Positions 18,203-58,882 of a stretch of DNA of 64,000 nt are shown here, in pieces (within the stretch, counting starts at the first letter, position 1; every line of letters starts with the position of its first letter). The translations under genes were made by a program, and so were the position numbers. The notes beneath the pieces were generated by a model. The model was not told the DNA's origin. It did not search any database and was given only the letters and a program-made list of their open reading frames with translations. The DNA comes from Eledone cirrhosa (taxonomy: Eukaryota). The stretch is from the NCBI GenBank assembly GCA_964016885.1, contig OZ024743.1:154132001-154196000 (forward strand), in the 5' to 3' direction.

Positions 18203-18402
18203 TTATTTTATAGAAGGAGCTTCTACAGGACTAGTACTGTTTCATTCAGATGAAATCTTCAGGAAGCTCCTGCAGATTTCATCTGAATGAAACAGTACTA
18301 GTCCTGTAGAAGCTCCTTCTATAAAATAATTTTTTTTTTTACTCTGCCATGTATTGAGTACCTTACTTACTGTGGTTATCCCCGACTCAACCCGGGACCT
18401 AC

Positions 18403-18403
<1 letters not shown>
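18203..18403. mobile_element. Fold-back mini-element (Penelope pLTR-like) in (TA)n
   Basis: 62-bp inverted arms 18203-18264 / 18268-18329 with one mismatch, plus a unique tail. TA tracts on both sides. Confidence 0.8.
18216..18270 (-). ncRNA. Type I hammerhead ribozyme motif
   Basis: GGAGCTTC-CTGAAGA-tTTCatctGAAt-GAA-ACAG-tactagtc-CTGT-A-GAAGCTCC: 8-bp stem I, 4-bp stem III, GUA site. Confidence 0.85.
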
Positions 18404-18449
<46 letters not shown>

Positions 18450-18977
18450 CACACACAGATACAAATATGTACATATACCTATACATATACATACACATAC
18501 ATACACATATATTAATAACATATATCCATGTACACACACATATACACACCTCCACACATAATCACTAGGAGGGATATCATTCTCACAGAGATAATGCCCT
18601 TCTCAACACGTGTGAAGTACCAGTCAAAACCATTTTTTGCACCTCTATTATTATTATTGTTGTTGTTATGATCTATATATCTAAAACAGAGAATGTCTGT
18701 CTGTCTGTCTGTCTGACTCCCTAAAACTCGAGAACCACCCAACCGATGATTTTCAGACTTTACACATGTGATACTTATGGTGGTGTGAGTGATTTGAGCA
18801 AAGAATATTTCAAATGTTCAATGCTCTAGGGACCGCATTAGGCGATTTAGCGATCTCTCCCTATAATTATTAGTCTTTCCTTTTAGATAGATACATAGAT
18901 ATAACGTTGCCCCCTTATAATATCTGTCTGTATGTCTGGCTGTCATCATTATGACATTATGACATCGCTATCTGTGT

Positions 18978-19029
<52 letters not shown>

Positions 19030-19674
19030 GGGGTAACAGATTATTGTTATAAGTAGTTCACTTAAGTGTAGTCTAGTTATGGTACTCCGGGTAGTGGATG
19101 ATATCAACGCTTGGCTAAGTTTGACTCAACAAGGCGTTTCCATAGTGATGTTGCGAGTACGCTGTAATTCCTATGTTGTAAACACTTGGAGTAATGATAA
19201 ATCAGGAAAGAAAAGTGACACGGTTTGCTATACAAAAATGGTTTTTAATCTCATTGCTGACAATTGTTTCTCTGAACTGGAAGGTCTAGAGATCGCTACC
19301 CGCTTGTTTTCATGTCAATTTTATACATCTGCCTCATGTCAGCTAGTTTTACACGCTAAAATCGTAGATATACCACACTTCCCACCTAGATTGATGTTGT
19401 GATTATTTCAAATAATTGATTGCTAGCCTTGTTAGTATCGTTGTTATTGTTCTGATTGAATGCCATTACTAATATATATAGTAGCCATGCCTGTATATAC
19501 CTTACATTCTCACAAGCTCCAATGAATTGACTGGTTATAAATTTGTATTGGTGATCGAATAACGTGAAAGCAAGCGGGTAGCGATCTCTAGACCTACCAG
19601 TTCAGAGAAAGAGTTGTCAGCAATGAGATTAAAAACCTTTTTTCTATAGCAAACCGTGTCACTCTTCTTTCCTG

Positions 19675-19680
<6 letters not shown>
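19030..19680. repeat. Inverted-repeat element in (TA)n
   Basis: ~119-bp arms 19197-19315 / 19562-19680 with a ~245-bp spacer. Confidence 0.85.
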
Positions 19681-19712
<32 letters not shown>

Positions 19713-19824
19713 TGTAACGTTTTTCGAAATATTTACTTCTGCGTTTACAGATTGATTTTTTTAGTTTCAGAAGATCCCGTTAATGGTGAAAGCAGTGATC
19801 CTTTGCTTTAACTTTAATCTGTTA

Positions 19825-19910
<86 letters not shown>

Positions 19911-19913
<3 letters not shown>

Positions 19914-22655
19914 ATTCTTTCGAACAGGACTTAATGAAAATGATAACCGGAAATCAAATTTACAAACGGAAGGAAAAACGAACTGCAACGAGATATTAAA
20001 ACTCTACTCGACAACCTAAGGAATACCAAAGGAATTATCATAAAGGCAGACAAAACATCGAATCTATACACCCTGGATGTAGAAACATATAATAATTTTA
20101 TACGTAAGGAATTACATAGGAAGTACAAAAAAACAAACGCAACTACACTAACCAACATTAATAACGCAGCATGTGATATTGTTAAGAAACTGAAAATTGA
20201 CGACAGAACGGTACCCCTATCTCCAGCTACACCGACTTTTAATCTGAAGGACCATAAGGATAACTTCGATACTAACCCTAAAATTAGATTAATATGTCCT
20301 TCAAAGTCCGATATAGGTAGAATTAGTAAGTACATATTAGATCGTATTATCCCCCAAGTTAAGGCTAAGGTAGATATTAAATTATGAGGTAATACTCATC
20401 AGGCAATAAGATGGTTCAATAACATTAGGGATAAAAACAAATCTTCTTTTATTCAATTCGATATAGATGAATACTATTCCTCTATTTCACCCGAAACCCT
20501 GCATAAGGCCCTCTCTTTCGCTAAGACTAACTCGGACCTCACAAACGAGGAAATTAATATTATACTTGAAGCTAGACGCACAGTAGTGCACTTTGAAAAT
20601 AGTTATTGGGTCCGCAGAGATAGACCCTCGGAATTCGACATTACGATGGGTTCTAATGATTCGGCGGAGGTCACGGATCTGGTTGGGATCTATATAGCCC
20701 ATATACTCCAGAGCGAATTTATGGACCTCCACGGCGGAATATACCGCGACGATACACTTCTATTAGTCAAGAATATGAACAAACAAAACCTAGAAAGGCG
20801 ACGTAAAAACATTAGGAAACTTTTCTGAGAACTAGGACTTAATATTACCTTCGAACACAATCTTAAGGTGGTCAACTTCTTGGATGTCACCTTCAACCTT
20901 AATAACGGTAATATAGAGCCATTTCACAAACTTAATGAAAATCTCAAGTACGTTAATGTAAAATCGAACCATCCTCATTCCATTATTAAATCTATCCCTA
21001 AAAATATATCCATAAGGATCTCCCGACTGTCGTCTAATTTGCAGACCTTCAACGGGCATGCTGAATAGTATAATGACGCACTTAGAAAAGCTGGTTACTG
21101 CGAGAAAATAGAATATCTAGACGATAACCACACAAGTACTATGAATAAAACACATCTAAGTCGAACTAGTATTGCACCACACACACACATCAATAGGCAT
21201 ACTAATAGGTGCAAACAAGCAAATAGAGTCAGACGTAGAGAGTACATATGGTATAACCCCGTGTACAATTTTTCTATTAGTACTAATATTATCTCACAAT
21301 TCTATACACTAATCAATAAACACTTTACAACTTCACATAAATACTATAACATCTTTAACTCGCGCACCATTAGACTCTCATACTCCACTGCACCTAACAT
21401 AGAACAACTAATTAAAAAACTCAACTCAGCAATACTGAATAAGTACATCCCTAATGACTCAGCGCACCAGCATAGCAACATACTAAGCACTAACACGCAA
21501 CTACAACCCCACCAAACTATCCAGGATTCTACTGCAAAACATAAAAATAATTGTAACTGCACCAAACCAGGTAGGTGCCCACTTAATAACCAGTGCCAAG
21601 CACGCAATATTGTCTACCGATGTACAATAAATTCCGGAACCAACAAATGGTATTACGTCGGATGTACTGCAACTTCTTTCAAGGCTCGCCTATACCAACA
21701 TCGATCTTCGATCAGGCACGAGAAAATGCGCTCCGTAACAACCCTCGCCGATAAAGCCTGGCAGCTCCGGAGGAACATTCAAGCATTCTCCCTTGATTGG
21801 CAAATTATAGCAGCTGCACCTGCATATAAGCAAAATCATCGATTCTGCAAGTTATGCAATTTGGAGATATACTGCATTTTAACGTCGGTAAACAAACTTT
21901 TGGGACAGCAAAATTAAACGTTCTCTATACTGTAACCATAGTTTGAAAACGACTTTTTCTTTTTTAAATGCATATAATGTTACCTTTTTACACCACCGTT
22001 TGCATATTTCTGTTTTATATGTTTATACACAAGATATGGCTTTCTATAATAATAGTACTAAACACTCTTTTCTGGACGCCTTTAGAAATAACCTGCTACT
22101 ATAATAGCCCCAATAACTTGTCTGTGACACTGTACCACTTTGACCCCTTTAACTAAATTTTGTCCGAACAACACCACTAGAAGAATTTACTTCCCCCGCC
22201 AACCCTAACAGGCCTCATTAAGCTAACTGGTGCCAAACATTCTCTCCTTACAATCTCTACTAGTCTGACAGTCTTAAATCCTAAGACTCCCTCCACCTTA
22301 CTCACTTCCCTCTTCCTCTTCTCTTCCTACCTCCTTCTTTATCTTTTATCTAGTGTATAAAATATTTTCATATTCCAATACAAAGGTCTGACGACATGGT
22401 GTGTTTTCTTACAGTGTACCTTCGGTTATGATAATATTTTTATATTATTCAAATAGCGAGGTATAGGTAACCCATACACTATAGAAACAATTGTTACCTA
22501 ATAAATTCTGTATACCCGCATTTCCATTTCATAAACTACTTCTCCATATTTTCTCCGGATTTTAAAACACACTTTATTATACGTTGAGCAATCTCTGACG
22601 TCGGTTGACTCCATCCAATGCAACTACTTAGTAATATTGGAATACAAATTTACTA

Positions 22656-22661
<6 letters not shown>
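19911..22661 (+). mobile_element. Penelope-like element, Naiad-like (RT + GIY-YIG), 5'-truncated, with nonsense codons
   Basis: IKADKTSNLY, LKDHKDNF..NPKIRLICPSKSDIG, FIQFDIDEYY, FDITMGSNDSAEV, GIYRDD, CNC..CPL..C, NIVYRC..YVGCT..FKARL..H. One frame with stops at 20385, 20826 and 21066. TA tracts on both sides. Confidence 0.9.
22384..22499 (+). ncRNA. Type I hammerhead ribozyme in the PLE 3' region, extended stem II
   Basis: AGGT-CTGACGA-[89-nt hairpin]-GAAAC-AATT-GTT-ACCT, then AATAAA. Confidence 0.8.
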
Positions 22662-22689
<28 letters not shown>

Positions 22690-22690
<1 letters not shown>

Positions 22691-23586
22691 GTGGAGAAAT
22701 AAATGTAGGACAACAAACCATTAAAACATGTTTATTTAAAACAGCACCTAAGTACGTTTCGCCCGAATGGGCTTCTCAAGGGCATAAATAACTAAAAAGT
22801 GTTCCGTACATGGCTCGGAATGGGTTTTTAGAGATAAGATCACGTCAGAGTTCATTCTTCGTAAAAAAAAACATGTATTGATTTTGCAGTAGGTCAAAGG
22901 AGATATCTCTGGCCGGTGTTAGTGCAGTCTTTTCCGGACAAATTTTTTATCCGTTACCAGTATGTGGCTACAAACTTACCATTGTCGATACGCACAGTGA
23001 CAGGAATGCAACGTTTGTTTCGAGACGTTTGTTTGCAGCGCCTGTCCACCTGGGTCGATTCATGCTGGGTCTGGGATGCATGGTTAGCTTCCGGATGTTT
23101 TTTGCAGCGCCTGCCCGCCTGGGTGATAAAGATTGGTGCAGGGAGACCCTGTTTACGGTTTCACTGCTCGTTCTTATTTCATCTGGAATAGGATACTTTT
23201 AAGCGGTGTGTTCAGCTTACTGTCGTTTCACCTCTGCTGTTGATGAGCTCGTGGGGTGCCGTTATGGTGGGGTAGAGCTCCTTGAGGTAAAGCTCGCACT
23301 TCCTCTTGAAGTTGTACGGTGCAGCCCTGCCGGCAATTTCCTGTTGCATGGAGAAGCTGATGTTTGAGTCTTTTAATGCTGTGATGTAGTTCGCAAGCGA
23401 AGTGGAGTGTCTTAGTTTCCTGTTTGCGAAAGAGTGGAGATGTGTTCGAAATCTAATTTTGAACGGGCCAGAGGTAGCCCCTATATAATGTTTAACGTTA
23501 TTATAGCTTGTTACGGTGCACCTATATATAACTCTATGAGTCAACCAGTTCACGCTAAGGGGCAGTATGTCCTGTCGCGGCATTGC

Positions 23587-23590
<4 letters not shown>
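22690..23590 (-). mobile_element. Second Penelope-like (Naiad-like) 3' fragment: GIY-YIG + pLTR
   Basis: VIYRCTV..YIGATSGPFKIRFRTH..STSLANYI..KCELYLKE. TA tracts on both sides. Confidence 0.85.
22744..22784 (-). ncRNA. Degenerate hammerhead (U3-A8 core variant)
   Basis: GCCC-TTGAGAA-GCCCattcGGGC-GAAAC-GTAC-TTA-GGTGC. Stems I and III carry mismatches. Confidence 0.55.
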
Positions 23591-23620
<30 letters not shown>

Positions 23621-23778
23621 GTGTAGAGGTATATTTGCATACACAATAACAACAAAATATAAACAAACGTATTTATTTCACGAGGTTCGATAAGGATAAA
23701 TATATATCGAATATATAAGAACCCTAGCGCAAATCCCGAGCAACGCCGGGCCATTCTGCTCGTTATTATTATTATTAT

Positions 23779-23898
23779 CTGAGTTCAAATCCCGCCGAGG
23801 TTAACTTTGCCTTTCATCCTTACGGGGTCGATAAAATAAAGTACCAGTAATGTGCTGGGTAATTGCTAGCCTTGTGCCTAAAGTAGAAACTATTATTA

Positions 23899-23950
<52 letters not shown>

Positions 23951-23964
23951 TATTATTATTATTA
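23779..23964 (+). mobile_element. 5'-truncated SINE (OK/OR-like) with long (ATT)n tail
   Basis: Matches family core. ATT tract at 23891-23964. Confidence 0.9.
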
Positions 23965-23965
23965 T

Positions 23966-26380: not shown

Positions 26381-26632
26381 ATAAATAAATAAACAAATAA
26401 ATAGATACAAACTTTTTTAAAATAACCATAAGTTTCATTGTAATGTAATGTTTGAATGTCTAGCTTAGTTTTGTTTGTTTGTTTGTTTTTCTTTTCTTTA
26501 CGTTTTTCGTTGCTGCTGTGCTTTTTTCTATTTTTTATTTTTTTTATTTTAGCTGCATGAGAAGTAGGGCCGTTGCGTTCAAAACTTTTGAAATTTGTTT
26601 CGACTTGTTGCTTCTCATTATTATTATTATCA

Positions 26633-26843
26633 GCCGAGGTTAACTTTGCCCTCCATCACCACCGGGCCGACGAGACAAAGCACCAGCAATGTACTGGGCA
26701 ATTGCAGCAAAAAGCAGCAACAATTATTATTATTATTATTATTATATTATACGGGGTCGATAAAACAAAGCACCAGCAATGCACTGAGCAATTGCCGGCC
26801 CTGCGCCAAAGAAAGAAGAAAAACTAGAAACAATTATTATTAT
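26633..26843 (+). mobile_element. Two tandem SINE 3' fragments with T>C-biased divergence
   Basis: By-eye alignment to the other copies in the window. Confidence 0.8.
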
Positions 26844-26871
26844 AATATCATAGTTTAGATTATTATTATTA

Positions 26872-29800
26872 TTGCGACTGCCATCTCCTCCTCTGTGACT
26901 AACACTGTCTCGATATTTTGGGCGACACCTGCAAAAGAAGTGGTTCCTTTTTCAGCAGCACCACTATTGCTGCCGCTACTGGTCTTACTGGTGGTGCTGA
27001 GATCGCTATTACAGGTATCGATATCATTGTTGATGTTTTCGTTGGTACAGTTGTTGGTGTTGTTGTTGTTTTCGTTGATACTGTTGCTGTTGTTACTGTT
27101 ATTGTGGTAGCTACACAAGCAACGACATTGCCGAAGAGGTCTCCACTACCACCACCAACAGCCGTAGAGCACATACCCCTCCCAGACGCCACAGAATCCG
27201 ACATGGAGTTTGAGGCAGGAGTGAAGTTGCAAACGGTCTGCCACAAAAAACAAAAAACAAAAAAAAACTTATATTCACCCTCCAAAGGCGAAGGCATACA
27301 AAGAGAGGTAAAGGCAGCAAGGAAACTTTCAGCAACACCACCACCATCACCACCACACAACCACTGACAACAACAACCACACCACCACCAGCATCACCAA
27401 ACACACCTACAACGCAAACACAACGACACACACACAAAACAGCAACAAGAAGATAACAGCAACAAAATCACCCCTCCCCCCCAAAAAAAAAAGTACACAG
27501 CCATAAACATGGCCAAAAAAGAACTCATACAATATATAAAGCAGCACAGACATCACAAAAAAAACTACTACACCCCTCCAACACCAATAACTCTCCCGAC
27601 AAACATAAGCATCATTGAAATCTCGATAGAACAGTACAAACCTTTAAAACAAAAATTCCCCAACGCAGATGGAGACTTCAAAGGGTCGGTTACCAAGAGT
27701 ATATAGACTGACATCCTCTTGGAAACACCCATGACCAGCGAAAGGGACGGTTCTACTGTCCCTTCACAACACGATTAAGGTAAGTGGCCCTTTCTTACTT
27801 GCCCCGTTTCTCATCCAACATGGCCGTACTCAGAATAGTCAGTATAAATGCACATGGCCTGGGGTCATCTTGGAATTAGGGTCACCTGCTCCACGACCTC
27901 AGGTCACTAAATATAGATGTGGTGGCCATCAGTGAGACCAGAATCTCCGAGGCACAAGTCTTCGCACCGATCTTCAGCGGCTACGATGTATACGCATCTC
28001 CCAGCCGTCCAGGATCGGGGGGAGGGGTTGCCGTCCTTTCTCGGAGAGGCTTGGATCTCGCCAGACGAGCCATCTTCCTAGACCCAGAAGGTAAGTCGGT
28101 GGTGCTGGGCGTGACCGGCAGCGAAGGCAATGCTTTCAGGCTAGTAGCCGTTTACGCCCCAACAGAGGCAGGACGGCCAGATTTCTTCAGACGTCTGGAG
28201 ACCTTTCTTGGAACGTCCCGCTCTTTAGTGTTAATGGGCGACTGGAACTGTATCTTGGATGCACGCTGGGATTGTGTGGCGCTAGTGGATAGGGAAGGAG
28301 GGTGCAATAGCCTCACCAACCTGCTCAGACGTTTTGAACCGTCTGACAGGTATCGTCTGGATAACCAGAATATGCCAAAGTGGACATGGACAAACCTCAT
28401 CGGGTCATCCAGATCGTATCTCGATAGGGTATTCTGTAGAGAACTAGATAAGGCTAGTATAAGTTGTCCCCAATTTAAAATAGTCGACTACACTGACCAG
28501 AAATTTGTGATATGTGAGATCGACATAGACATACTTCATAGACAAGGGCCAGGTTACTGGAAGCTGAACGCGTCTTTCCCGGCGCGCAAAGACTGCATAG
28601 ACCGGATTAGCGTATTAGTTAAGTGGGCGTTGATGGGAGCGGTCGTCATCATCAGGTGGTGTTCGCCCTGAAAAGTAGAGTCGATAAGGTTTAGCAAAGG
28701 AGTAGTGATAGAGGAAAATAGAGTAGAGGGAGATTAGTCAGAAAGCTAGAAGAGGCGTTTAGGACAGGCATCGCAAACGACGTCCTTGCGGCGAGATTGG
28801 CACTCGACCAATTCTTCAACGCAAAACACGAAGGCTGCGTTGTCAGAGCTAGTGCGCGTGCTCTGAAACACGAGGGGACAAAAGCCGTCCAATGGGCCCG
28901 GGTGGCAGAGGCGCGACGTGGCAAGAAAGCCACAATTCGGTCTTTGTCTGACCAAAACGGATGCGTGATGCTCGAAATCGAGCGGATGTGTGAAGCTTTT
29001 CTGCAGCACTTTGCTGACTGTTCGGGAGCAGCGGCGGCCCAGATCGGGGCATGGACTTCAGTGCATACCTCGACGGACTGCCTCGGCTCTCGACGACCGC
29101 AGCACAGTGTTGCGAAAAGCCAATAACAGCCGGAGAAATACGGGAAGCGATGGCTACTGCACAAGGGGTAAATCGCCAGGTTTGGATGATCTGCCCTACG
29201 AGCTTAATGCATTTATGCGAGACTTGTACGGTGACCTCTTGGCAGATGTTTACTGCAACTGGCAGCAGAACGGGAGCATTCCCAGTTTTGTGAGCCGGGG
29301 AGCAGTGGCGCTGCTGAGAATATACCCAAACCAGGGGGATGTTATCGATAATTTCAGGCCTATAACCCTGCTAAACGCAGAGTTCAAGATTTTGGACAAG
29401 GCGTTAGCAACGAGGCTGGCGCTTGTCGTCAAGCGTATGGTGGGAGAGGCGCAGATATGCGCCATTACGGACAGATCCATACACGACAACCTCCACCTCA
29501 TGCGATGCATCATAGAGAGGGCGGTTAAGGAACCTGGCATGGGTGGGGCCCTGATCAAATTGGATCAATCCAAAGCATTCGATAGGGTCGACCATCGGTA
29601 CCTGGCGGCGGTCCTCGAGACAGCCGGTTTCGGGCCGTTTTCAGGGGTTGGATCGCAACAATGTACAGCGACATCTGCTCAGTTGTGAGAGTGAACGGTC
29701 ACCTGTCGAAGCCGTTCAGCATCATGCGCTCAGTCCGCCAGGGTTGTCCCCTATTGTCCCTCTTTTACGTATTGGCTCTAGAGCCGTTACTGCACAAACT

Positions 29801-31177
29801 GGAGGCGATGAGGGACGTCCCACGAGAACTAGGATGCGGGAAATCCGAGTAGGCTTACGCCGACGACATCACCGTGGTGGTGTCGAGCACCAGACACGTC
29901 CAGATGCTCGGCACCGCTCTCAAGGAATACGAAGCGGTTACAGGAGCAAAGATAAACCAGGAAAAGTCGATGGGCTTGCAGCTCGGCACTTGGAGAGGAA
30001 AGTCCATGCCGTCCGACAGCGTCGTGGAGCGTTGGACGGACGGACTGGTTAAATTGCTCTTCCGCTTTTTGTGGAAGGGACACTCTCCCATAGTCAGACG
30101 ATCCATCTGCTGTCAACACCCGTTGCGTGGAGGACTAGGCATGCCATGCTGATGATGCGTAAACATGCGCTGAGGCTGCGACATCTCTGGTGCTTCCTTC
30201 ACGTTGAACAGGTGTGGTCGCTGTTCGCCAGGCACGTTTTCCCACAGCTCGTCTCCTTGACGGAGCTGCAGTCCTGGGTCAGAAAAATCCCGAGGGATAG
30301 CGCTTGGAAACTGGAATTTCTTCAGGCGCCCACTGCCCTCTGCCAGCTGGGCACCAGTATCGGTGGAACATCCACCTCGGCGTTCTATAGAGGATTAGTG
30401 GAGGGGATGTGCGACGACATTCTCGGAGAGATCCTGGGCGTCGAAGATCAGCTGTTTGCTCTCTTCCGGAGAACTTTCAGCCACGGGGCCTATGGATAAC
30501 TTCCAAAAATCCCTGGCCTGGCAGAGCTACCGGGGAGCGCTGCCGGTTTGAGATAAGCTCTACAGCCGAGCCTATCCGAGATGCGCACAGGGTGGCGAAA
30601 CCGTCGTGCACGCACTCGTTCTGTGCCCGAGCAATGCTGACTTGTGGAGCTTGTCGAACAGTTGCTGTCGCGTGTAGGACTGATCCGGTTATCGACTGAG
30701 TCCATGGTGCAGATGGTCTCGCTGTCTTCCTTCGAGGAGGAAGGGCAGGCGGTTTTCATCTGCCTTGTGACCATGGCAAAATAGATTGTGTGGTGGACAA
30801 GGTTAAAAGGGTTAAAGCCAGATACTTTGAGAGATGGGAAAATTGAGAGAGGGCGCTTGCCCTGGTGGTCAGGATGGCCGTGGTCTTTTGTGTGGTTTTC
30901 GCCACGAGTAACCCTCTATTGGGGAATTTTTCATTGTTTCAATTTTCATTTTTATTGTTTATATATATATGTTTCTATGTCCTTTTTTTTCTTTTCATAT
31001 ATAAATAATAAAAATATTTACACGCACAAAACCCACATCTAACCGTCCTGTACCATCCTGTGCCATCTGTAATGTTTTTCTTGATGTCAGCCCTTGTGGC
31101 CAATAAGGAAATCATTATTATTCTTATTATTATTACTACTACTATTATTACTATTATTATATTATCATTATTATTAA
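26872..31177 (+). mobile_element. Tx1/L1-clade LINE copy A: inverted 5' ORF1 segment, decayed ORF2 (APE + RT + Zn motif)
   Basis: VAISETR, GDWN, SYLDR, GPGYWKLN, FRPITLLN, SVRQGCP, AYADD. Ends AATAAGGAAATC(ATT)n. Homologous to 48045-53886. Confidence 0.9.
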
Positions 31178-36002: not shown

Positions 36003-36235
36003 ATTATTTAACCTAATAGTGGGGTTAAGAACCCTCGGAGAAATGGAAAAATATGAGTATTGACGTACATGAACGTACATGTACGTCAATACTCATGTTT
36101 TTTCCATTTCTCCGAGGGTTCTTAACCCCACTATTAGGCTAAATAATTTCTTTAATTTTTTTAGTCAAAATACGGCGATAGCTTACATTTCTAATAATTT
36201 CAAATCAACTCGCTGTTTCGAAAATATTATTACAT
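36003..36235. mobile_element. Fold-back mini-element in (TA)n
   Basis: ~70-bp inverted arms spanning 36003-36147, plus a tail. Confidence 0.8.
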
Positions 36236-36249
36236 GTATGTATATATAT

Positions 36250-36571
36250 CTATATTAGAAAATGAGATTTATTTTACAAAATGAAAAAAAAACGAAATGT
36301 CCTATAAGGAAAAACGATGAAATCGAAAATGCAACTGGAGTCTTTTTAAGATTATTTATTTGGTTCCTTTACCGGTTTCGCAGTTCTTGTGCTTTTCAAA
36401 AGTAGAATTGAGATGGAGGGTTTGTGGGTTTTCTCTCATGCGAGAAAAACCACAAACTCTCCATCTCAATTCTACTTTTGAAAAGCACAAGTACTGTGAA
36501 ACAGTAAAAGGAACCAAACAAATATTCTTAAAAAAGACTCCAGCTGCATTTTCGATTTCATCTTTTTTCCT

Positions 36572-36575
<4 letters not shown>
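36250..36575. mobile_element. Fold-back mini-element in (TA)n
   Basis: ~135-bp inverted arms spanning 36303-36575, centred near 36439. Confidence 0.85.
36367..36402 (-). ncRNA. Minimal hammerhead ribozyme, U3-A8 variant
   Basis: CTT-TTGAAAA-GCAcaagaacTGC-GAAAC-CG-GTA-AAG. A mutated mirror copy lies on the + strand in the right arm. Confidence 0.7.
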
Positions 36576-36635
<60 letters not shown>

Positions 36636-45146: not shown

Positions 45147-45169
45147 ATATATATATAAATATATATGCA

Positions 45170-45619
45170 AAAGTTCTATTTAAATTGTTGGGATACAACA
45201 AGCAAATATTTTTATAACTGATATAAAGCACTCGACAAGTATTCGCAGTAAATATACGATATTAACAAATGGAACTATATTTATAAAACCATATCTATTT
45301 TATTATACATATTTCAAGGATACCATGTTAAATTATGGTATACTTTCATCAGACAAAATACAATATATACCAGTTTTATAAATAAATATTGACATACCCT
45401 TTCAAAATGCAACCGTTACTTTTGGAAGACTATCCTGATGTCTTCCAAAAGTAACGGTTGCATTTTGAAAGGGTATGTCAATATTTATTAATAAAACTGG
45501 TATATATTGTATTTTGTCTGATGAAAGCATATCGTAATTTAACATGGTATCCTTGAAATATGTATAATAAAATACATATGGTTTTATAAATATAGTTTCC
45601 ATTTGTTAATATCGTATAT
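45170..45619. mobile_element. Fold-back mini-element in (TA)n with a hammerhead core in each arm
   Basis: ~180-bp arms spanning 45252-45619. CTGATGA-stem II-GAAATATGTA at 45518-45564 (+) and 45306-45352 (-). Confidence 0.85.
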
Positions 45620-46260
45620 ATATATATATATATATAATAAGTTCATAAGGATATATATGTATATATTTAGACATAGTCATACATACATATATGAGTGTGG
45701 CTACCTTCCACAGTGTGGCTCAATGAAAAGATTAATTAAGCAAATAATTATTAATCAGAGCTATATAAAATGATAAATTTGAAGAAGAGTCAGACAAAAT
45801 ATATTCAATTTTTCTTCTCCTTAGTCCGTAGAAATTAATTAGATAAATAATAATTTAAACGGAGCTAAGAGTAAAATGTAACTTCCAAGAAATAACAGAT
45901 AAATGTCACAGACTATCCCTTGTGATGAACAAATAATCAATTAAACGGAGCTATGTCAAAATGCAAGTTGGAAGAAAAAGCATATATAATTCCTTTTATA
46001 TTTTTATTATTTTATTATTATTTTGTTTTATTATGTTTTAACTAGTGCTTGTATATTTTGCTTTTGTGAGCCATCAATTGTATCTGCATCTTGTGAAATC
46101 TACTTGTAACCTAGCATTTAGCTGTGGTGCTTAACAACCCCAACATGTACCCCCTACATGTTCGCCATCTGCGATCTCCCTATCTTTACCCTGTATTGTA
46201 TTCTAATTGTTCGTGTGACTGAGCTTTGTGGAGCTTATACTCAACACTGTGTTTATTAAT

Positions 46261-46303
46261 CTCTGAGGATTCCTACCAAACGGTGAGGATGAAACATTGT
46301 AAG
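46261..46303 (+). ncRNA. Minimal hammerhead ribozyme motif in a solo pLTR-like fragment
   Basis: CT-CTGAGGA-tTCCTACCaaacGGTgAGGAt-GAAAC-ATT-GTA-AG, then AATAAA and a (TA)n tract. Confidence 0.7.
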
Positions 46304-46347
46304 CAAATAAAAACTGTTTGAGTATGTAAGCGTTCTTTGGTTTCTTT

Positions 46348-46350
<3 letters not shown>

Positions 46351-47525: not shown

Positions 47526-47559
<34 letters not shown>

Positions 47560-47707: not shown

Positions 47708-47985
47708 GCGCGGGGACAGAAATAATCGGGCTGGATGCTCGATCGCGCAGTTAAACCACTGGGAGTAAAAAAACCCTAGCCCTTTTCAGGGCATTCTTCT
47801 AGGAGAAGGCTTCTCAGGAAACTGGGTTAACTCCGACATAAAACAGGCGGCTCAGTAGTTACCGATGATGTTGATATTTCCTTCTTTTCGGGTTATAGCT
47901 ACTATCGCTCAGAGAGTGGGATCGGCTCAGTGCACAGTCTTTCCTCACTTTAAAAATATTAGTCACGCACAGGCAATGCACGAGT
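47708..47985 (+). repeat. Second copy of the RTE 5'UTR-like repeat at 7000-7268
   Basis: Shared GTTAAACCACTGGGAGT, CAGGGCATTCTTCTAGGAGAAGGC, GGTTATAGCTACTATCGCTCAGAGAGT. Confidence 0.85.
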
Positions 47986-48006
47986 GCATTAATAATTATT
48001 AATAGT

Positions 48007-48044
<38 letters not shown>

Positions 48045-48045
<1 letters not shown>

Positions 48046-51000
48046 GAGACCTACGTAGTAAATCGTATCATCGTGAGCTCCTCAAAGTTTTGTTATTTTC
48101 AGTTGTTCAAAATTGCCATTCATGGAAAATGTTATTGTTAACTCTATATAAGAGCACATACATTGTTATCTGAAAAGGACACCCAAAAAGATTGGGGCTT
48201 TGAGCCCAAAATTTAAACTTTTATAATTATCAAACAAAAATTTTTCTTTGAAACATCATGGCTCACTCAGAGTCACTCCTTTCTCACAAACTAACACATC
48301 ACACCGACACCACCATTGTAAATATTACTACGTTTGCCAACACTAAAAACAATATAAGCAGGAGCAATATTTTAAATTTGTCTCAGGCAGACATTCATTT
48401 CCCGCCATTACCAATGACTGCAGGTGTTAAAGCCGCCACCCCCACCACCACCACAGCGACAACAGAAACAAAAGAAAAAAATTAATTAACTCGTGATATC
48501 GAAATGAATTCAACAAAAATGAACTCTTCCTCACCGAACACCACTGACGCCACCACCACCACAACTGAAACAAATTAATAATAACAAAAATAACGATAAC
48601 AACAACAGCAACAATGATATTAAGAAAACCTCCCTGAGTTTTGCCAGAGTAGCAAAACAGTGCGAAGCATTTCAGTTAACTCAGGAGGAATTAGAAGAAG
48701 CAAAAAAATGGTAAAGAAAGATGGGTACAGGGTCAGCCTCCCCCTCCCACACACCCTTAATAAAATGGAGCATCGGCGCCTATGCACCGTGTCTTATCGA
48801 ACAATTAATATAAAATCGCGCCGAGTGGAATGGTCATCCGAGTTCCAAATCCTAAAAGCTTTTGGACAAGTGTGGGCAAAAAACCCCCACATCAGACGTG
48901 GGCAGAAGTATGGAACCGTGGACGTGTTCTTTGAAACATCACAGGAGGCTAGAGAACACTCCATGGCCCCATTAAGAAGTGACGACTTCACACTCGTGCC
49001 AAGCTATTGTGGCCAGAGATTCGTAAAATTCAGGGTCACCCACGTTCCACCGGCCATCGAAATTCCTTGGCTAATAGCTGCTGTCCTCGCCGGCATCGAA
49101 GCCAACACCAAGATAATCGAAATAGCGAAAGAACATCAAGAGAACTGCTCCGGATCTGGGATGGAGCACCTGATCCAAGCGAACCAAAAAAGCATTGAGT
49201 AGATCCCAGAGGTAATAGGCATCACTGACGGCAGCCACCTCACCGTAAGTGTCGAGGGCAGAAGGCCTAGGTGACTCGTTTGTGGTGAAGGAACCCACCT
49301 AAGGGCTTTCTGTCCTCAGGCTAAAAGGTTGAGGCCACCTCTCCTACCGACCCCAGTGACTCAACCATCGACACCACCAGCAGCAGAGATGGCAGCAATA
49401 AAAGAAGCAACTGTAACAGCAACAACCCCAGCAACAGTAGCAAAACCAACGCCACCACCACCCAACGCGCCAGAACTAGCACCAGCGCCTACACCATCCA
49501 CCACGCCACAAACAAAACTAACGCCTGTGGAGGATTTTCCACTCCCCGGCCTATCACAACTGGAGACAGATTGTGACGACGAGGAGTGTGAAACGGTATC
49601 AGGAAAATTGAAAAAAAGAAACCAAAAAAGAAAAAAAATTCTCTTCCTTCCCCCTCAAAAAACAAAATACAGAGGGAAACAAATAAACTATCAAACAAAA
49701 AAGTTAGGACAAAAAGGTTATGACACCATCCACACCAGCATCACCAACTCCATCACCCCAAACACCAACACCGTCACCATCATTATCCCCAACACCACCA
49801 TCACCTACACCACAAAAGTCACCAAAATGCGAAACAGAAACAAACCCACAACAAACGCAAACAAGACAAAACAACCAAAACGATACACACTACACAGCAT
49901 TAAATTTGAACAACAACCAATTATTACACTACATCCAACACAACACCAGCATCACATAAAAGACTACACAACAGCCCAAAGGTTCACACCACCTCGACAC
50001 ATACAAATCACTCGCATCACGCAGAAAACGTACACGACACTAAAACAAAAATTCCCCAAATATCGGAGACTTCCGACAAGCACTCTCCAGGAGGATTTAT
50101 AAGGACATCCTTCCGGAGCCAGAAGCAGTGAAAAGGATGGAGAAACCGCCCTTCCTCTACGAGAAGTAAGGTAAATGGTCTATCCCATCTTTTCCACTCC
50201 ATTTCAACGTGACCTCACTCAGAATAGGCAGCATAAATGCGCGTGGCTTGGGGTCGTCATGGAAGCAGTGCCACCTGCTCAACGACCTCAGGTCACTAAA
50301 CATAGATGTAGTAGCCATCAGCGAGACCAGAATCTCCGAAGCACGGGCCTTCGTACCGATCTTCGGCGGCTACGATGTGTACGCATCTCCCAGCCGTCCT
50401 GGATCGGGCGGTGGAGTTGCTGTGCTTTTTCGGAGAGGTTTGGATCTCGCCATACGGGCCATCTTCCTGGACCCAGAGGGTAAGTTGGTGTTGCTGGACG
50501 TGACCAGCGGAGACGGGCAAGCTTTCGGGCTTGTGGCCGTTTATGCCCCGACAGGAGCAGGGCAGCCTGATTTTTTTAGGCGTCTGGAGACCTTTCTTGG
50601 AACGTCCCGTCTTTAGTGTTAGTGGGCGACTGGAACGGGATCTTAGATGCACGCTGGGACTGTGTGGGATTAGCGGATAAGGGTGGAGTGTGCAAGAGCC
50701 TCACCAACCTGCTCAAGCGTTTTGAACTGTCTGACAGGTACCGATTGAATTTCCCGAATGTGCCAAGGTGAACTTGGACAAATCACATAGGGTCATCCAG
50801 GTCATATCTAGATAGAGTATTTTGTAGGGAAAACGGTCTAGCATAGGCTGTCCACAATTTAAGATAGTCAGCTACACGGACCACAAATTCGTGATCTGTG
50901 TGCTTGACTTAGATAGGCTTCATAGACGAGGACCCGGCTACTGGAAGCTAAACGCATTCTTACCAGCGCGCGAGACCTACAGAGACCGGATTAGCGAACT

Positions 51001-53886
51001 AGTTAAGCGGGCATTGACGGGAGCCATCGTTAACAACAAGTGGTGGTTTGCTCTGAAAAGAGCGATTCGAATAGAATCCATTAGGTTTTTTTAAGCTTTA
51101 GCAATAGAGAAAAATAGAGCAGAGAGAAAACTAGTTAGAAAATTAGACGAAGCGCTTAGCAAAGGCATCGGGACCGACGTGCTTGCGACGAATTGGCCCT
51201 TGACCAATTCTTCAATGCAAAGCACGAAGGCTGCGTTGTCAGAGCTAGGGTGCGTGCTCTCAGACACGAGGAGACGAAAGCCGTTCAATGGGCCCGAGTG
51301 GCGGATAGCGTCGTGGCAAGAAAGCCACGATCCGGTCTGTGGTGGGCCACGGTGGGCGCATGCTACTCGATCCCGGGCAAATGTGTGAAGCTATTCAGCG
51401 GCACTTCGTTCAGCTGTTCGGGGGCAGCGGTGGGCCGGTTCGAGGGATGGACTTTAGTGTCTACCTCGACGGACTGCCGCAGCTCTCGGCCACTGAGGCG
51501 GAGTGTTGCAAAAAGCCGACAACCACCGCTGAAGTACGGGAGGCAATGACTGGCTGCACAAGGGGTAAATCGCCTGTTTTGGATGGTCTGCCCTATGAAC
51601 TAAACGTACAGATGCCAGACTTGTTCGGAGGCCTCTTGGCGGACGTCTACTGCAACTGGAAACAGGACGGGAGAATTCCCAGCTCTGTGAGCCGAGGAGC
51701 GGAGGAACTGCTGAGAAAGGATCCGAACAAGGGGGATAACATAGATAATTTCAGGCCCATAACTCTGCTAAACACAGAGTTCAAGATTTTGGCCAAGGTG
51801 CTACCAAAGAGGTTGGCGCTTGTCGTTGGTGGTCTGGTGGGAGAGGCGCAGACATGCGCCATTCCTGACAGATCCGTCCACCACAACCTCCACCTCATGC
51901 GATACGTCGTAGAGAGGGTAGCTAGGGAACCTGGCACGGGTGGGTCCTTGATCAATTTAGATCAGTCGAACATATTCGATAGGGACGACCATCTATACCT
52001 AGCGGCAGTCCTGAGGGCGGTTGGCTTTGGGCTCGTCTTCAGATGCTGGATTGCTGCTATGCACAGCGACATCTGCTCTGTGGTGAGAGTGAACGGTCAC
52101 CTTTCGGAACCGTTCAACATCATGCGCTAGGTCCGCCAAGGATGTCCCCTCTCGTCACTCTTGTACGTATTGACTCTCGATCCATTACTGCACAAACTGG
52201 AGACGTTGAGGGGCGTCCCGCGCGAACTAGGATGCGGAAGATCCGTGTCAGCATATGCGGACGATGTCACCGTAGTGGTGTCGAACGCCAAACACATCGA
52301 GGCGATCGGCACTACATTAAGAGAATACGAAGCGGTGACAGGAGTAATGATCAATCAGGAAAAGTCAATGGGCCTGCAGCTCGGCGCCTGGAGAGGCAGG
52401 TCCATGCCGTTCACCAGCGTCGTCGGACGCTGGATGGACGGACCGGTTAAATTGCTCGGGGTCTGTTTCGATCCGGACCTCCAGACGGACAAAAACTGGG
52501 ACGAGGTGACGAGCAGGGTGACTTCTCTCACCCAGAAATTGGTGGAGAAGAAGCTATCCCTGAAAGGTCGGGCGAGGTGGCTAAGGCGTATATCGCGTCT
52601 GTCATCTGCTACCAACTGACCGTCGTACCTTGTCCTAAGCCCCGCCTGACTGCGCTGGAGCGTTTGCTCTTTCGTTTTTTGTGGAAAGGACGCGCTCCGA
52701 TGGTCAGGGGGTCCATCTCTTGTCAACACTCGCTACGTGCAGGGCTGGGCATGCCGCGGCTGATGATGCGCAGACACGCGCTCAGGCTACGACATCTCCA
52801 CCTCTTCCTCGACGGTGATCAGGTGTGGTCGCCGTTTGCTAGACACGTATTTCCCCAGCTCGTTTCCTTGACGGAGCTGCAGTCCTGGGTCAAGCGAAGA
52901 CCGAGAGGGAGCGCCTGGAGACTGGAATGTCGTCAGCCACTCACAGCCCTCGACCAATCGGGCAATGTGATCGGTGGAAACTCCACCTCGGCGTTCTATA
53001 GAGGATTAGTGGAGGGAGGAGCGACTACGTACTTGGGGAAACTCTAGGCGTCGACGAAAATCAACTAGCCAATCTCTTCGGAAGTACTTTCGGGCCGGGA
53101 CCTATGGACAACTTCCAGAAATCTCTGGCCTGGCAGTGCTACCGAAGAGCCTTGCCAGTTCGTGATAAACTCTACAGGCATGTAGGTGCCGTCAGCCGGG
53201 TATGTCCGAGATGCGCGCAGGGCGACGAAACCGTCCTGCACACACTCGTCCAGTGTCCGAAAATTGCTGACTTGTGGGTTTATGTCGAACACCTGCTGTC
53301 GGATGTAGGACGGATCCGGCTATCATCTGAGTCCATCGTGAGGATTGTCCCGCCCTCTTCCTTTAGCCGTGAAGGGCAGGTAGTTTTTATCTGTCTGGTG
53401 GCCATGGCGAAGGAGATAGTATGGTAGACACGTTTGAAAGGGCTGAAGACGAGCACTTACCTTTTCGGTGATACCCTGATTGACCTTTTCAAATTTCATT
53501 TGAAAAGGAAAGTCAGGGTAGAGAGGGAAGTGCTCTCTTCCCAGCATTTTGTTGAAAGATGGGTGAGAGAAGCAAGAATGGCCCGAGTGAATGGGCCTAC
53601 TCTGTGTACGTATCTGTAAATTAAAGGTGTAAAACTGGGAGAGGGCACTTACCTTGGTGGTCAGGGTCACTGTGGCCTTTTACTGGTCTTTCTCCACAAA
53701 TGTCCCTCCGAAGTCTCCCCCCTATTGGGGAATTTTTCATTTTTATTTTTTGTTACGTTCTCTGTTTTTGTTTTTTTACACGCAGAAATGCCCATTTGTA
53801 CCGTCCTGTATTGTCCTGCACTGTCCTTAATGTCTACTTTATGTAAACCCTTGTGGTTAATAAAGAAATCATTATTATTATTATTA
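48045..53886 (+). mobile_element. Tx1/L1-clade LINE copy B, near full length, inactivated
   Basis: ORF1 from 48258 with CCHC-like knuckle (RPR*LVCGEGTHLRAFCP). ORF2 ~50205-53619 with SINARGL, ISETR, FRPITLLNTEFKILAK, AYADD, CPRC..ETVLH..C. (ATT)n on both sides. Confidence 0.92.
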
Positions 53887-53887
53887 A

Positions 53888-54108
53888 TGGTGGATTGGCA
53901 ATATTGGTAGAGTGTCGGATGCCATGCTTTGGCGCATAGAGTTACGGCCCTTGCCATTCTGAGTTCAAATTCCGCCGAAGTTAACTTTGCTTTTCATCCT
54001 TACGGGGTCGATAAAATAAAGTACCAGTAATACATTGGGTAATTTCTGGCTTTGTGCCTAACGTAGAAACAATTATTATTATTATTATTCTTACTATTAT
54101 TATTACTT
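53888..54108 (+). mobile_element. Full-length SINE (OK/OR-like) with (ATT)n tail
   Basis: TGGTGGATTGGCA head, B-box GAGTTCAAATTCC, GTAGAAACAATTATT end. Confidence 0.9.
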
Positions 54109-54124
54109 TTTTTTTTCCAATTCA

Positions 54125-56377: not shown

Positions 56378-57380
56378 TCAGGATTTGCGAGCTAGTTCTT
56401 CGGGGTTGCAAATGCGGGACACGTTTCTCATCACCCGTACCAAATCCGCAATCAGTATGTTGATTTTGGTGTGATCCGAAACAGTTGAGTTTCGGTGGAT
56501 CATATATTTGGAAGTAATGGGTTTGGCATAATGGGAATGGAGGATTTGTTTTGTGTTATTAATGGTTTCTAACCAGAGATCTGTGTCTAGTACAGGTAAT
56601 CGATGGTTGGGGTGTTTTCTTGGGTAGTCTATAGTAATTCTAATACTCTGGTGGATGGAGTTAGCTAATTGCTGGATGCTTTCCATTGTGTTTTTCTATA
56701 ATTCCTGACTGTTCTCTAGTGGGCGTCTTTTTACTACAATGTTTATATCATCAACGTATCGGGAGTACATTATCAGGGTTAAGAGGTTGATGTTTTCTAA
56801 TTGTTCTCTAAATTTAAGTTTATTGGCCCACCATACCATAAATAGGTTAGCTGTGTCACCTGCAACACCAGGGGCTGCTCCCTCCTCTTGGGCATATGTT
56901 TTTCAATTAAATTTGAACATATGTTCCTTAAGGGTTAGTTTTATACTGGCCCAAACCGCATGTGCAATCATTTTCTTTAGTTCATCGTGGTTTTCGGGGG
57001 TCCGTATGGCTCTGGTCCACCCGTTCCATCTTTCTGTGTGGGTTTTCTTGGCCATTGAAGTAATGGTAGGTGGTCTGCCTCTTGCTGGTCCTTTAGGGCA
57101 CAGTTTGCTAAGGTCATATGTATCTAGATAAACATTACTATAGGTAAGTTTAAGTAGGAGTCCCAGCTCACTGGTATCAATCTCATGGAATTCAACATTG
57201 CTCTCACTGATGATTTCTACGCATTTCTCCACAGCAAAATCCACCTCAATGGATGGATATAGGGACACAACATCCATACTACCTATTATATAGTCTGTTA
57301 GGTCCCTAGATCGGTTATTTTCGCTGAGTCTGCTGAGGAGGTCCTCCGTGGTGTCCAATATATCTAGGGACATTTCAATT
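56378..57380 (-). mobile_element. Penelope-like RT fragment of a different lineage from the Naiad-like copies
   Basis: IIGSMDVVSLYPSI, SRYVDD, DYP..HPNHRLPVLDTDLW, HSHYAKPITSK. Confidence 0.8.
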
Positions 57381-57850
57381 GAGCACCATAAATTGAATAG
57401 TATAGGCTGCCATCTCTAGCAGATTGTTCTGTTCATGCCACCGGTTAGTGCCTCGCTCACGTATTTCCCTTACATCTACATGTGCGAAAGGTAGTTTACT
57501 TTAGTTCTCTCTAGTAGTGCGGACAATATCGGCCTTCCACTTGCTGATGCCCACAGGGCCGACTTGGAATCCACTTGAATGGCGAAACATTCTCTTGGTG
57601 AGTATGTACATGTGTGACCTAGGTATGAGGTTGGTTTCTCATTTTAATTTATATTTTTAATTTTAATGTTTTTCCTATGCCACTATTAGCTTATATTCTC
57701 TTCACAATGGTGGTTTGAAATTCCAGTAAAGAAAAACACACTCTTCTGTGCCTTTCCCCTCTATATATTGTATTTTAAAGTGCCCATGAAAAAGCCTTTG
57801 AGCTCATTTAATTACAGGATTCATGCCCGTCCTTTGGTCCGTTATTTTAC

Positions 57851-57866
57851 TATATATAAATGTATG

Positions 57867-57899
<33 letters not shown>

Positions 57900-57926
57900 G
57901 TATATGTATATATATATAAATATATG

Positions 57927-58017
<91 letters not shown>

Positions 58018-58032
58018 GTATGTATATCAATT

Positions 58033-58093
<61 letters not shown>

Positions 58094-58172
58094 ATATATA
58101 TGTATATATATTTATGTCTAAATATGTGTATATATATATATATATGTATATATACATGTATATACATGTATG

Positions 58173-58203
<31 letters not shown>

Positions 58204-58340
58204 GTATATATAGATGTATGTATATATATATATGTATATATATGTATTTATATATATACATATATTTACATATATATATATGTACATATATGTCTATATG
58301 TATGTATATATATTTATATATATATATATGTATATATATA
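57851..58340. repeat. Long degenerate (TA)n/(TATG)n tract
   Basis: Directly visible. Source of the spurious YIYI ORFs. Confidence 0.95.
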
Positions 58341-58474
58341 TTAATTAGTGTATGTGTTTGTTCATCACCGACACAAGGGCAGATCACCCGAATAATTAAA
58401 CACGTGGGTCTGTTTATTCCGGCGTTTATTCATAACCATGAAATACATGTGAAACCTCGTTTATTCCTAAATTT

Positions 58475-58529
58475 TGTTATATATATTTCGGTGATAACCG
58501 TTATGTCACAGTTATGACCTCATCAGACA
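58475..58529 (-). ncRNA. Minimal hammerhead ribozyme in a solo pLTR-like fragment (~58345-58643)
   Basis: TGT-CTGATGA-GGTcATAACTGTgacataACGGTTATcACC-GAAAT-ATAT-ATA-ACA. Confidence 0.8.
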
Positions 58530-58644
58530 GACAGACATTGAAGAGAACTTACAATAAAGAAGAAATAAGGTTTACTTCTGTTGGTTCGATTCATTGATAT
58601 GCCCCGGCCTGATATTTGGTCTTACTTATCAAACCTCCGCTGAT

Positions 58645-58689
<45 letters not shown>

Positions 58690-58882
58690 ACGAAGGAAAT
58701 ATGGTAAGGCACCAGGTGGACCAAAACGCACCAAAGTACTCGATACTTAGGGTAGTATAGTGGGTAATAGGTACGAGTAGGTCCCCGACGGCTGAGCTCA
58801 AGCCGTTTCGACGGCTAATTCTGGCCAGAATCAGCCGTCGAAACGGCTTGAGCTCAGCCGTCGGGATCCTACTCGTTCCTAT
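58690..58882. mobile_element. Fold-back mini-element in (TA)n carrying the 3' half of a hammerhead in each arm
   Basis: Inverted arms 58767-58882 centred on TGGCCA. GAAAC-GGCTTGAGCTCAGCC-GTC in each arm. Confidence 0.8.

What the first reader, a model, noticed from the sequence alone, without database searches (positions are those of the whole stretch)
18203..58882. System-level: hammerhead-bearing fold-back mini-elements that colonise (TA)n tracts
Seen: six short non-coding elements with mutually different sequences (18203, 19030, 36003, 36250, 45170, 58690) share one architecture, (TA)n - inverted arms + one-sided tail - (TA)n. Each carries a whole or half hammerhead motif. In three, the fold-back point lies inside a ribozyme stem: stem I (18203), stem III (36003), stem II (58767). 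Two solo pLTR-like hammerheads (46261, 58475) and coding PLEs with hammerheads sit in the same context. Known: Penelope-like elements carry minimal type I hammerheads in their pLTRs and often have an inverted 5' pLTR. Inference: these are retrozyme-like non-autonomous derivatives or extreme truncations in which cDNA snaps back on the ribozyme hairpins. They would seed near-perfect dsRNA hairpins (ADAR/siRNA substrates) roughly every 10 kb here.
Basis: partly seen in the sequence, partly recalled or inferred. Interest (0 to 1): 0.8.

Follow-up and report, generated by a model that had tools for sequence, protein, structure and literature searches.

The report
Palindromic mini-Penelope retroelements in TA repeats
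These are tiny self-folding DNA repeats, found at many places in this animal genome inside TA tracts, that are the tail ends of Penelope-type retrotransposons copied head-to-head, likely because one RNA is reverse-transcribed twice from opposite target strands, and one family carries a tRNA-like head instead of a ribozyme.

Summary
The six hairpins are real and each belongs to a dispersed family (740-4,580 first-look candidates). Architecture: (TA)n, tailless inverted arm, loop, arm, tail, (TA)n. Three (19030, 36250, 58690) are 3' ends of coding Penelope-like elements (PLEs) found here, 45170 has a 74-77% coding relative, 18203 has linear relatives with the PLE optional tail but no ORF reached. 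36003 has no hammerhead: it derives from a 270-nt tandem unit with a tRNA-like head. The fold-back centre is in a ribozyme stem for 18203 and 58690, outside it for 36250 and 45170. The tailless arm starts at one fixed site (172 of 177), both arms share one subfamily haplotype (0 chimeras in 57), and the tailless arm is often the longer one, also in 4.5-kb coding palindromes. A single snap-back cannot give that; twin priming at the two known PLE start sites on one RNA can (inferred). The ribozyme looks like a passenger. About one strict element per 27 kb, one short-loop palindrome per 12 kb in 1.19 Mb sampled. No RNA data; ADAR/siRNA role untested. New variant of a known kind.

The parts
18203..18403 (+). 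Family e1 hairpin mini-element: arms 18203-18329, tail 18330-18403; centre in the 5' strand of hammerhead stem I; intact hammerhead reads on the - strand (core 18262), + copy has a core mutation
   Evidence: linear relatives with optional tail
19029..19680 (-). e2: truncated, inverted insertion of a coding Hydra-type PLE 3' end; tail 19029-19196 (168 nt), tail arm 121 nt, tailless arm 374 nt (tailless arm longer)
   Evidence: parent with EN at L167, 94.9%
19912..22659 (+). 5'-truncated, stop-interrupted coding PLE (DKT, CxCX5C, C-terminal GIY-YIG: Hydra features) with hammerhead core at 22388, TA tracts at both ends
22690..23589 (-). Endonuclease end plus 3' repeat of a second PLE, U3-A8 hammerhead at 22779-22747
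36003..36236 (+). e3 hairpin: from a 270-nt tandem unit with tRNA-like head, no hammerhead; centre at the 3' end of the tRNA-like part; left end shorter than in most family copies
36252..36576 (-). e4 hairpin: arms 36303-36575, tail 36252-36302; U3-A8 hammerhead 36399-36366, centre about 40 nt upstream of the core
   Evidence: coding parent L199 with CX4CxxC linker and GIY-YIG, 78%
45158..45622 (-). e5 hairpin: arms 45249-45622, tail 45158-45248; full hammerhead in both arms (45352, 45518), centre about 80 nt upstream of the core
   Evidence: coding relative L207, 74-77%
46031..46350 (+). Solo PLE-type 3' repeat with hammerhead core at 46263 (weak stem I), AATAAA, tail, TA tract
   Evidence: relatives at 74-89%
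58341..58645 (-). Solo PLE-type 3' repeat with hammerhead core at 58526 (3-bp stem I), palindromic stem III
58690..58882 (-). e6 hairpin: tail 58690-58766, arms 58767-58882; 3' half hammerhead only; centre in the parent's extended stem II
   Evidence: coding Hydra-type parent L189/L350/L351, window copy 90-91% to it

Best explanation
These are minimal palindromic insertions made from the 3' ends of Penelope-like retrotransposons, likely by twin priming on one RNA. Inferred steps: the PLE protein nicks both strands of a (TA)n target; one nick primes reverse transcription at the distal start site (arm plus tail), the other at the proximal site (arm without tail); both cDNAs stop early and are joined head-to-head through a short self-complementary stretch, which in two families is a hammerhead stem. 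Either cDNA can be the longer, so the loop comes in both orientations and varies between copies while the arms match. Short hairpin copies are likely re-transposed in trans as non-autonomous families, and are also made afresh from coding parents at the same hot spot. The hammerhead is a passenger of the 3' repeat, predicted to be silenced by the antisense arm. The 36003 family likely uses the same machinery with a tRNA-like head and no ribozyme.
For: Parents: L189:2202-5069 is RT + CxCX5C + GIY-YIG ending in the e6 arm and tail, with a tailless inverted 5' copy; e2 in L167, e4 in L199, e5 relative in L207. The young e6 parent ends at either of two sites 77 nt apart (9 tailless, 7 with tail of 16 read; 17 fetched) and forms giant versions with 99.3-99.5% arms of 2.0-2.1 kb; in both L350 and L351 the loop belongs to the tailless arm. 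Tailless arm starts within 10 nt of one site in 172 of 177 inverted tail-bearing copies; where arms differ by 15 nt or more the tailless one is longer in 15, the tailed one in 5; the window's own 19030 is such a case. Loops: 36 distinct in 57 e6 copies, 24 in 31 e5, 26 in 29 e4; e6 sense 15, antisense 20, independent of subfamily. Arm haplotypes: e6 37 aa, 20 bb, 0 ab (12 other types); e5 29 of 31 identical. Private changes are mostly one-armed (e6 40 of 42, e5 59 of 67, e4 54 of 61), so arms are not homogenised after insertion. Flank duplications at L011, L082, L087. In vitro a PLE protein nicks and extends both strands, starts at two sites that define the tail, and does not need ribozyme activity (PMC11167929). 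Loops that contain arm sequence (e1 2 of 2, e6 3 of 11, e5 1 of 9, e4 3 of 12 loops of 12 nt or more) point to hairpin templates.
Against: No RNA or protein data (no RNA holder listed). Most copies were the best hits to the window copies, so lengths and isomer ratios are biased; 15:5 omits long tailed arms that run past my reference parents. One e6 variant is shared by 12 tailless arms and 1 tailed arm: possibly ascertainment because the query has it, but it is what whole-unit copying predicts. e4 is less clean (recurrent variants 39 mirrored, 48 one-armed; 21 of 31 concordant haplotypes). In young e1, 8 of 14 singletons are mirrored, which also fits fold-back copying. Self-propagation is not proven: 9 of 11 long e6 loops also match parent-upstream 6-mers, and 2-3 of 14 sampled e6 hairpins carry markers of the active coding parent. 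No ORF reached for e1 (25 loci); no partner found for e3.
Confidence: 0.68

Rival explanations
1. Single-primer snap-back or self-priming (first reader; self-priming proposed in PMC3846280): one cDNA folds back on a ribozyme stem or palindrome and copies itself; endonuclease trimming removes the tail from the second arm.
For: Mirrored subfamily variants and absence of chimeras; centres in stem I (e1) and extended stem II (e6; a long loop in L011 keeps the parent's inner stem II hairpin); palindromes at junctions reported in rotifer PLEs.
Against: Cannot make a tailless arm that reaches further into the parent than the tailed arm (15 copies; 445-480 nt in L350, L351); centres outside the ribozyme in e4, e5 and no ribozyme in e3. 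Survives only as the joining step after two primings.
Confidence: 0.12
2. Same twin-priming chemistry, but the hairpins never move themselves: every copy is an abortive product of a coding parent's RNA stopping at a structural hot spot.
For: All 14 sampled e6 hairpins from several subfamilies have arms of 52-70 nt; some carry the active parent's markers; e2 behaves this way (variable junctions); parent has at least 40 copies identical over 171 nt.
Against: Loops containing arm sequence; the commonest top-hit haplotype of e6 was seen in none of the 9 linear-class copies or the 16 parent ends (a biased sample); a 60-bp-plus perfect stem is however a hard template, which favours this rival.
Confidence: 0.3
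3. Retrozyme-like elements: ribozyme cleavage releases units that circularise and are re-inserted.
For: Intact hammerheads in e1, e5, e4; animal retrozymes derive from PLE repeats (bioRxiv 10.64898/2026.07.22.740005); e3 parent is a tandem 270-nt unit of retrozyme size.
Against: No direct tandem ribozymes; forcing the ribozyme fold costs 72 and 84 kcal/mol in the whole hairpin against 3-5 in a single arm; e6 lost half, e3 has none; centres and ends do not match the cleavage sites.
Confidence: 0.04
4. MITE-like DNA transposons or post-insertion quasi-palindrome correction.
For: Palindromic, high copy, TA target; loop inversions are known between inverted arms (recalled).
Against: Asymmetric tail, homology to coding PLE 3' ends, singleton changes stay one-armed.
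Confidence: 0.04

Closest known systems
Penelope-like elements, Hydra clade (e6, e2 parents, window PLE 19912-22659) and Neptune/Nematis-type (e4 parent); PMC8557442
   Same: 3' repeat with hammerhead, inverted 5'-truncated copy, optional tail at one end, (TA)n target, C-terminal GIY-YIG; CxCX5C linker and DKT for Hydra.
   Different: Units of 190-470 nt with no ORF, a fixed centre per family, tails of 60-170 nt rather than 30-40, tens of thousands of copies by extrapolation.
Poseidon of Anolis in vitro (PMC11167929)
   Same: Two start sites define the tail; both strands nicked and extended; ribozyme dispensable.
   Different: The text I read (parts 1-2 of 4) does not describe joining of the two cDNAs or palindromic products; that step is my inference.
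Animal non-LTR retrozymes (PMC7229834; bioRxiv 10.64898/2026.07.22.740005)
   Same: Short, non-coding, PLE-repeat derived, hammerhead remnants.
   Different: Retrozymes are direct tandems with active ribozymes and circular RNA; these are inverted, dispersed, ribozyme buried or lost.
Non-autonomous Chlamys such as MRC1 (PMC8557442)
   Same: Non-autonomous PLE derivatives sharing 3' ends with coding families.
   Different: Described as head-to-tail with pseudo-LTRs, not self-palindromic.
L1 twin priming (recalled, no call)
   Same: Two target nicks prime on one RNA and give an inversion.
   Different: In L1 the second primer lands internally, giving inversion without duplication; here both start near the 3' end, giving an inverted duplication.
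tRNA-derived SINEs; Helenus/Ajax (search listing and abstract start only)
   Same: tRNA-like head with A and B box-like motifs in e3.
   Different: e3 has PLE-type insertion anatomy (tandem, inverted, optional 35-42-nt tail, TA target); a T5 run follows the head.
Palindromic Harbinger of Xenopus as ADAR substrate (PMC5625713)
   Same: ~200-nt self-folding repeat at high copy.
   Different: DNA transposon; editing shown there, untested here.

Membership tests
Penelope-like element derivative | Sequence continuity with a PLE RT + GIY-YIG ORF | tested here: met
   e6 (L189, L350, L351), e2 (L167), e4 (L199); e5 relative 74-77% (L207)
Penelope-like element derivative | ORF link for e1 and e3 | tested here: inconclusive
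   e1: linear relatives end with or without the tail, ORF not reached in 25 loci; e3: no similarity to sampled PLE 3' ends
Penelope-like element derivative | Optional tail at one end, inverted 5' copy | tested here: met
   172 of 177; e3 ends cluster at monomer 119, 154, 161
Penelope-like element derivative | Mobilisation by the PLE protein | not testable with these tools
   needs in vitro or cell assay
Hydra clade (parents of e6, e2; window PLE) | CxCX5C linker, C-terminal EN, DKT, (TA)n target | tested here: met
   CxCX5C in L351, L167, L164; DKT in window ORF 19947; definition. No tree built; RWK motif not reached (5' truncated)
Minimal type I hammerhead | Core, three stems, NUH site | tested here: met
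   e1, e5 scored; e4 and e6 parent show the U3-A8 variant described in PMC4209133, read by eye
Minimal type I hammerhead | Present in e3 (36003) | tested here: not met
   no core on either strand of the monomer
Minimal type I hammerhead | Self-cleavage | not testable with these tools
   predicted to be blocked in the whole hairpin
Non-LTR retrozyme | Two or more direct tandem units each with a ribozyme | tested here: not met
   ribozymes are in inverted arms; the only tandem unit (e3) lacks one
Non-LTR retrozyme | Circular RNA | not testable with these tools
   no RNA run
tRNA-derived SINE (e3) | tRNA-related head | tested here: met
   Rfam RF00005 31.1 bits, E 8.4e-05; ARAGORN calls no gene
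tRNA-derived SINE (e3) | Pol III transcription through the body and a LINE-derived 3' end | tested here: inconclusive
   T5 run just after the head; no partner found
MITE | Symmetric terminal repeats of a DNA transposon | tested here: not met
   asymmetric tail and PLE homology

The most novel reading that the evidence does not exclude
Penelope-like elements transpose by twin priming on one RNA, and this has bred a class of self-propagating palindromic 'retro-MITEs', including a tRNA-headed, ribozyme-free unit that would be a SINE-like parasite of PLE machinery. At about 100,000 copies they are a main source of near-perfect double-stranded RNA in this genome and would explain much of the unexplained hyper-editing load reported for octopus.
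Probability: 0.3. Interest if true: 0.85.

Novelty: new variant of a known kind. Interest (0 to 1): 0.66.

Why it matters
How PLEs make their inverted, one-tailed insertions is described as undefined in the papers read. These families give tens of thousands of natural end products with a fixed second start site, one-template arms and two loop orientations, which turns the question into a defined in vitro test with a young parent. They also bear on RNA editing: octopus has an exceptionally high share of loci able to form near-perfect dsRNA and the top hyper-editing signal, with no repeat named as the source in the passages read (PMC5625713). In 1.19 Mb here, 1.2% of bases lie in non-simple inverted arms of 95% or more; 51% of these have the TA-bounded layout (18% by chance) and 28% relate to the six families or their parents (not the paper's method). 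That this genome is an octopod is my recall of a SINE plus genome size, not tested. Annotation pipelines would likely file these as MITEs or unknowns.

Tried and rejected
Rfam scan: only miRNA-type hairpin matches below gathering scores, no hammerhead. First hammerhead scanner was too strict (2 hits); replaced. Pfam found nothing on the PLE fragments; the Atlas gave clusters with RT and GIY-YIG shares. First called the e6 parent Neptune; changed to Hydra after reading the clade definition. In one search the first e6 reference had the proximal site mis-set; its 69 rows were dropped and the second reference used. e3 was left out of arm statistics because both ends carry tail sequence and copies were counted twice. 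A-to-I signature in copies: none. Enrichment of centres in ribozyme stems: among 41 clusters about as many read inside as outside by eye; not a test, since the ribozyme lies where short arms must end. Naiad as e3 partner: no similarity in five 3' flanks. No RNA holder listed. Contigs of public runs X1 and X4 cover arms and tail, some cross the centre; they may be the source sample, so not counted as independent; X5 had 3 and 0 pieces. Earlier findings: none in three look-ups. A genome-wide count of linear versus hairpin e6 haplotypes was not obtained. Literature searches with no description of such palindromic PLE minis or a tRNA-headed PLE parasite in the listings; Repbase and Dfam were not searchable, and bioRxiv supplements and the octopus repeat library (PMC13282606, passages only) were not seen and may hold them.
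Full report
Observation. Self-BLAST finds all six inverted repeats at the stated places with 91-96% arm identity, bounded by TA tracts. The six do not match each other, though tails share a short GAGT-centred motif (16 of 41 cluster representatives, shuffled mean 3.0, maximum 7; motif chosen by eye from the same data). A relaxed hammerhead scanner scores five sites in the window (13725, 18262, 22388, 45352, 45518) and none in 20 shuffles. 36250 and the PLE end at 22779 carry the U3-A8 core variant described in PMC4209133 (passages), read by eye. 58690 has only the 3' half. 36003 has none.

Copy number. The window is in a 3.0-Gb genome. Searches gave 4,580 (e6), 740 (e1), 1,222 (e3), 2,607 (e5), 3,239 (e4) and 3,243 (e2) first-look candidates, 40 scored each. 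For e1, e3, e5, e6 nearly all scored copies span hairpin and tail as one unit; e4 mostly so; e2 copies are mostly linear with scattered inverted forms. In 119 evenly spaced 10-kb stretches (1.19 Mb, large contigs only) there are 98 short-loop palindromes and 44 strict TA-hairpin-tail elements in 24 clusters, 14 of them e6; extrapolated, about 111,000 (80,000-149,000) and 35,000 (19,000-59,000). Distinct flanks, one-armed private mutations and variable loops exclude fold-back assembly artefacts.

Parents. L189:2202-5069 is a 5'-truncated RT + CxCX5C + GIY-YIG element ending in the e6 arm and tail, preceded by a tailless inverted copy; these are Hydra features (PMC8557442 section 11). Its upstream region has at least 40 identical copies, several in inverted pairs. 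Of 17 small stretches fetched, 16 were readable: 9 end tailless, 7 with the tail. e2 continues into an endonuclease at L167 (94.9%), e4 into one at L199 (78%, CX4CxxC linker), e5 has a coding relative at L207. e1's linear relatives end with or without the tail but run into microsatellites before any ORF. e3 comes from a 270-nt tandem unit whose head scores as tRNA, with 3' ends at three sites 35-42 nt apart, tandem and inverted forms, and about 70% identical older relatives.

Centres. e1: palindromic stretch in the 5' strand of stem I. e6: 3' side of the parent's long stem II; several subfamilies share it. e4 and e5: about 40 and 80 nt upstream of the core. e2: variable. e3: end of the tRNA-like head. 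None is the cleavage site. I have no test of enrichment.

Mechanism. Shown in sequence: the tailless arm begins at one site in 172 of 177 copies; it is the longer arm in 15 of 20 copies with a clear difference, including the window's 19030 and two 4.5-kb coding palindromes (a third, L352, has the tailed arm slightly longer); loops are hypervariable and come in both orientations regardless of subfamily; arms carry one haplotype (0 a/b chimeras in 57, about 26 expected if templates were independent); private changes are mostly one-armed. From the literature: a PLE protein nicks and extends both strands, starts at two sites that define the tail, and inserts without ribozyme activity (PMC11167929, parts 1-2 of 4); inverted junction palindromes were earlier read as self-priming (PMC3846280, passages and part 3 of 5). 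Inferred: two primings on one RNA, early stops, head-to-head joining by microhomology, through annealing or fold-back of either cDNA. Results against: 12 tailless arms share one e6 variant, e4 is less concordant (21 of 31), samples are biased to best hits, and self-propagation of hairpins rests on a few loops that hold arm sequence. The ribozyme is predicted to be buried: forcing its stems costs 72-84 kcal/mol in the whole hairpin, 3-5 in one arm.

Comparison. It works like the inverted 5' structure of PLEs reduced to its minimum; it is not a retrozyme as defined (PMC7229834 passages; bioRxiv 10.64898/2026.07.22.740005 part 1 of 5 and passages) and not a MITE. L1 twin priming is recalled, not read. 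The searches listed under Tried and rejected showed no paper on such families, but repeat databases and supplements were not seen.

Double-stranded RNA. 1.2% of sampled bases lie in non-simple arms of 95% or more, half with this layout. Octopus stands out for such loci and for hyper-editing (PMC5625713 passages). The host being an octopod is recall; expression and editing are untested, and copies show no A>G excess.

Verdict. New variant of a known kind; interest 0.66, mainly for the testable transposition model and the tRNA-headed family.

Noticed in passing
   Followed up: partly
window 56390-57415 (-): PLE-type RT with a long insertion between motifs A and B (Naiad-like by that feature), interrupted by a LINE fragment; relatives in L222, L268, L232, L298, L208 end at TA tracts.
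   Followed up: partly
window 19710-19829: Short unit between two TA tracts that resembles the 3' end of the coding PLE in L262 and hairpin cluster 17; probably another solo PLE end.
   Followed up: no
window 4899-5083: A seventh, older hairpin (80% arms) with a one-sided tail.
   Followed up: no
L350, L351 (4.5-kb units), L156, L160: Giant near-perfect palindromes of coding or long PLE ends, 370 bp to 2.1 kb per arm, stable in the assembly.
   Followed up: partly
L183:880-1420, L233:1380-1720: Older tRNA-headed tandem/inverted relatives of e3 with apparently conserved hairpins downstream of the head; possible structured RNA.
   Followed up: partly
many loci, e.g. L156, L011, L326, L331: Different PLE minis pile up in the same TA tracts, each insertion leaving new targets; 941 tracts of (TA)6 or more in 600 kb.
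   Followed up: no
window 4477-4670, 7271-7472, 15412-15637, 23778-23936, 53876-54100, 59062-59254: Frequent ~200-nt SINE-like repeat in both orientations, recalled as octopus-like; a second source of inverted pairs.
   Followed up: no
window 27816-31129 and 50205-53886: Two decayed copies (about 80%) of an L1/Tx1-like LINE with endonuclease and RT Pfam matches.
   Followed up: no
window 9945-11817: ORF fragments without Pfam match that look like a decayed DNA transposase (recall).
   Followed up: no
e1, solo 46263 and cluster 33: Recurrent U-U opposition at the base of stem II and very long stem II inserts (90-170 nt) in these PLE hammerheads.
   Followed up: no
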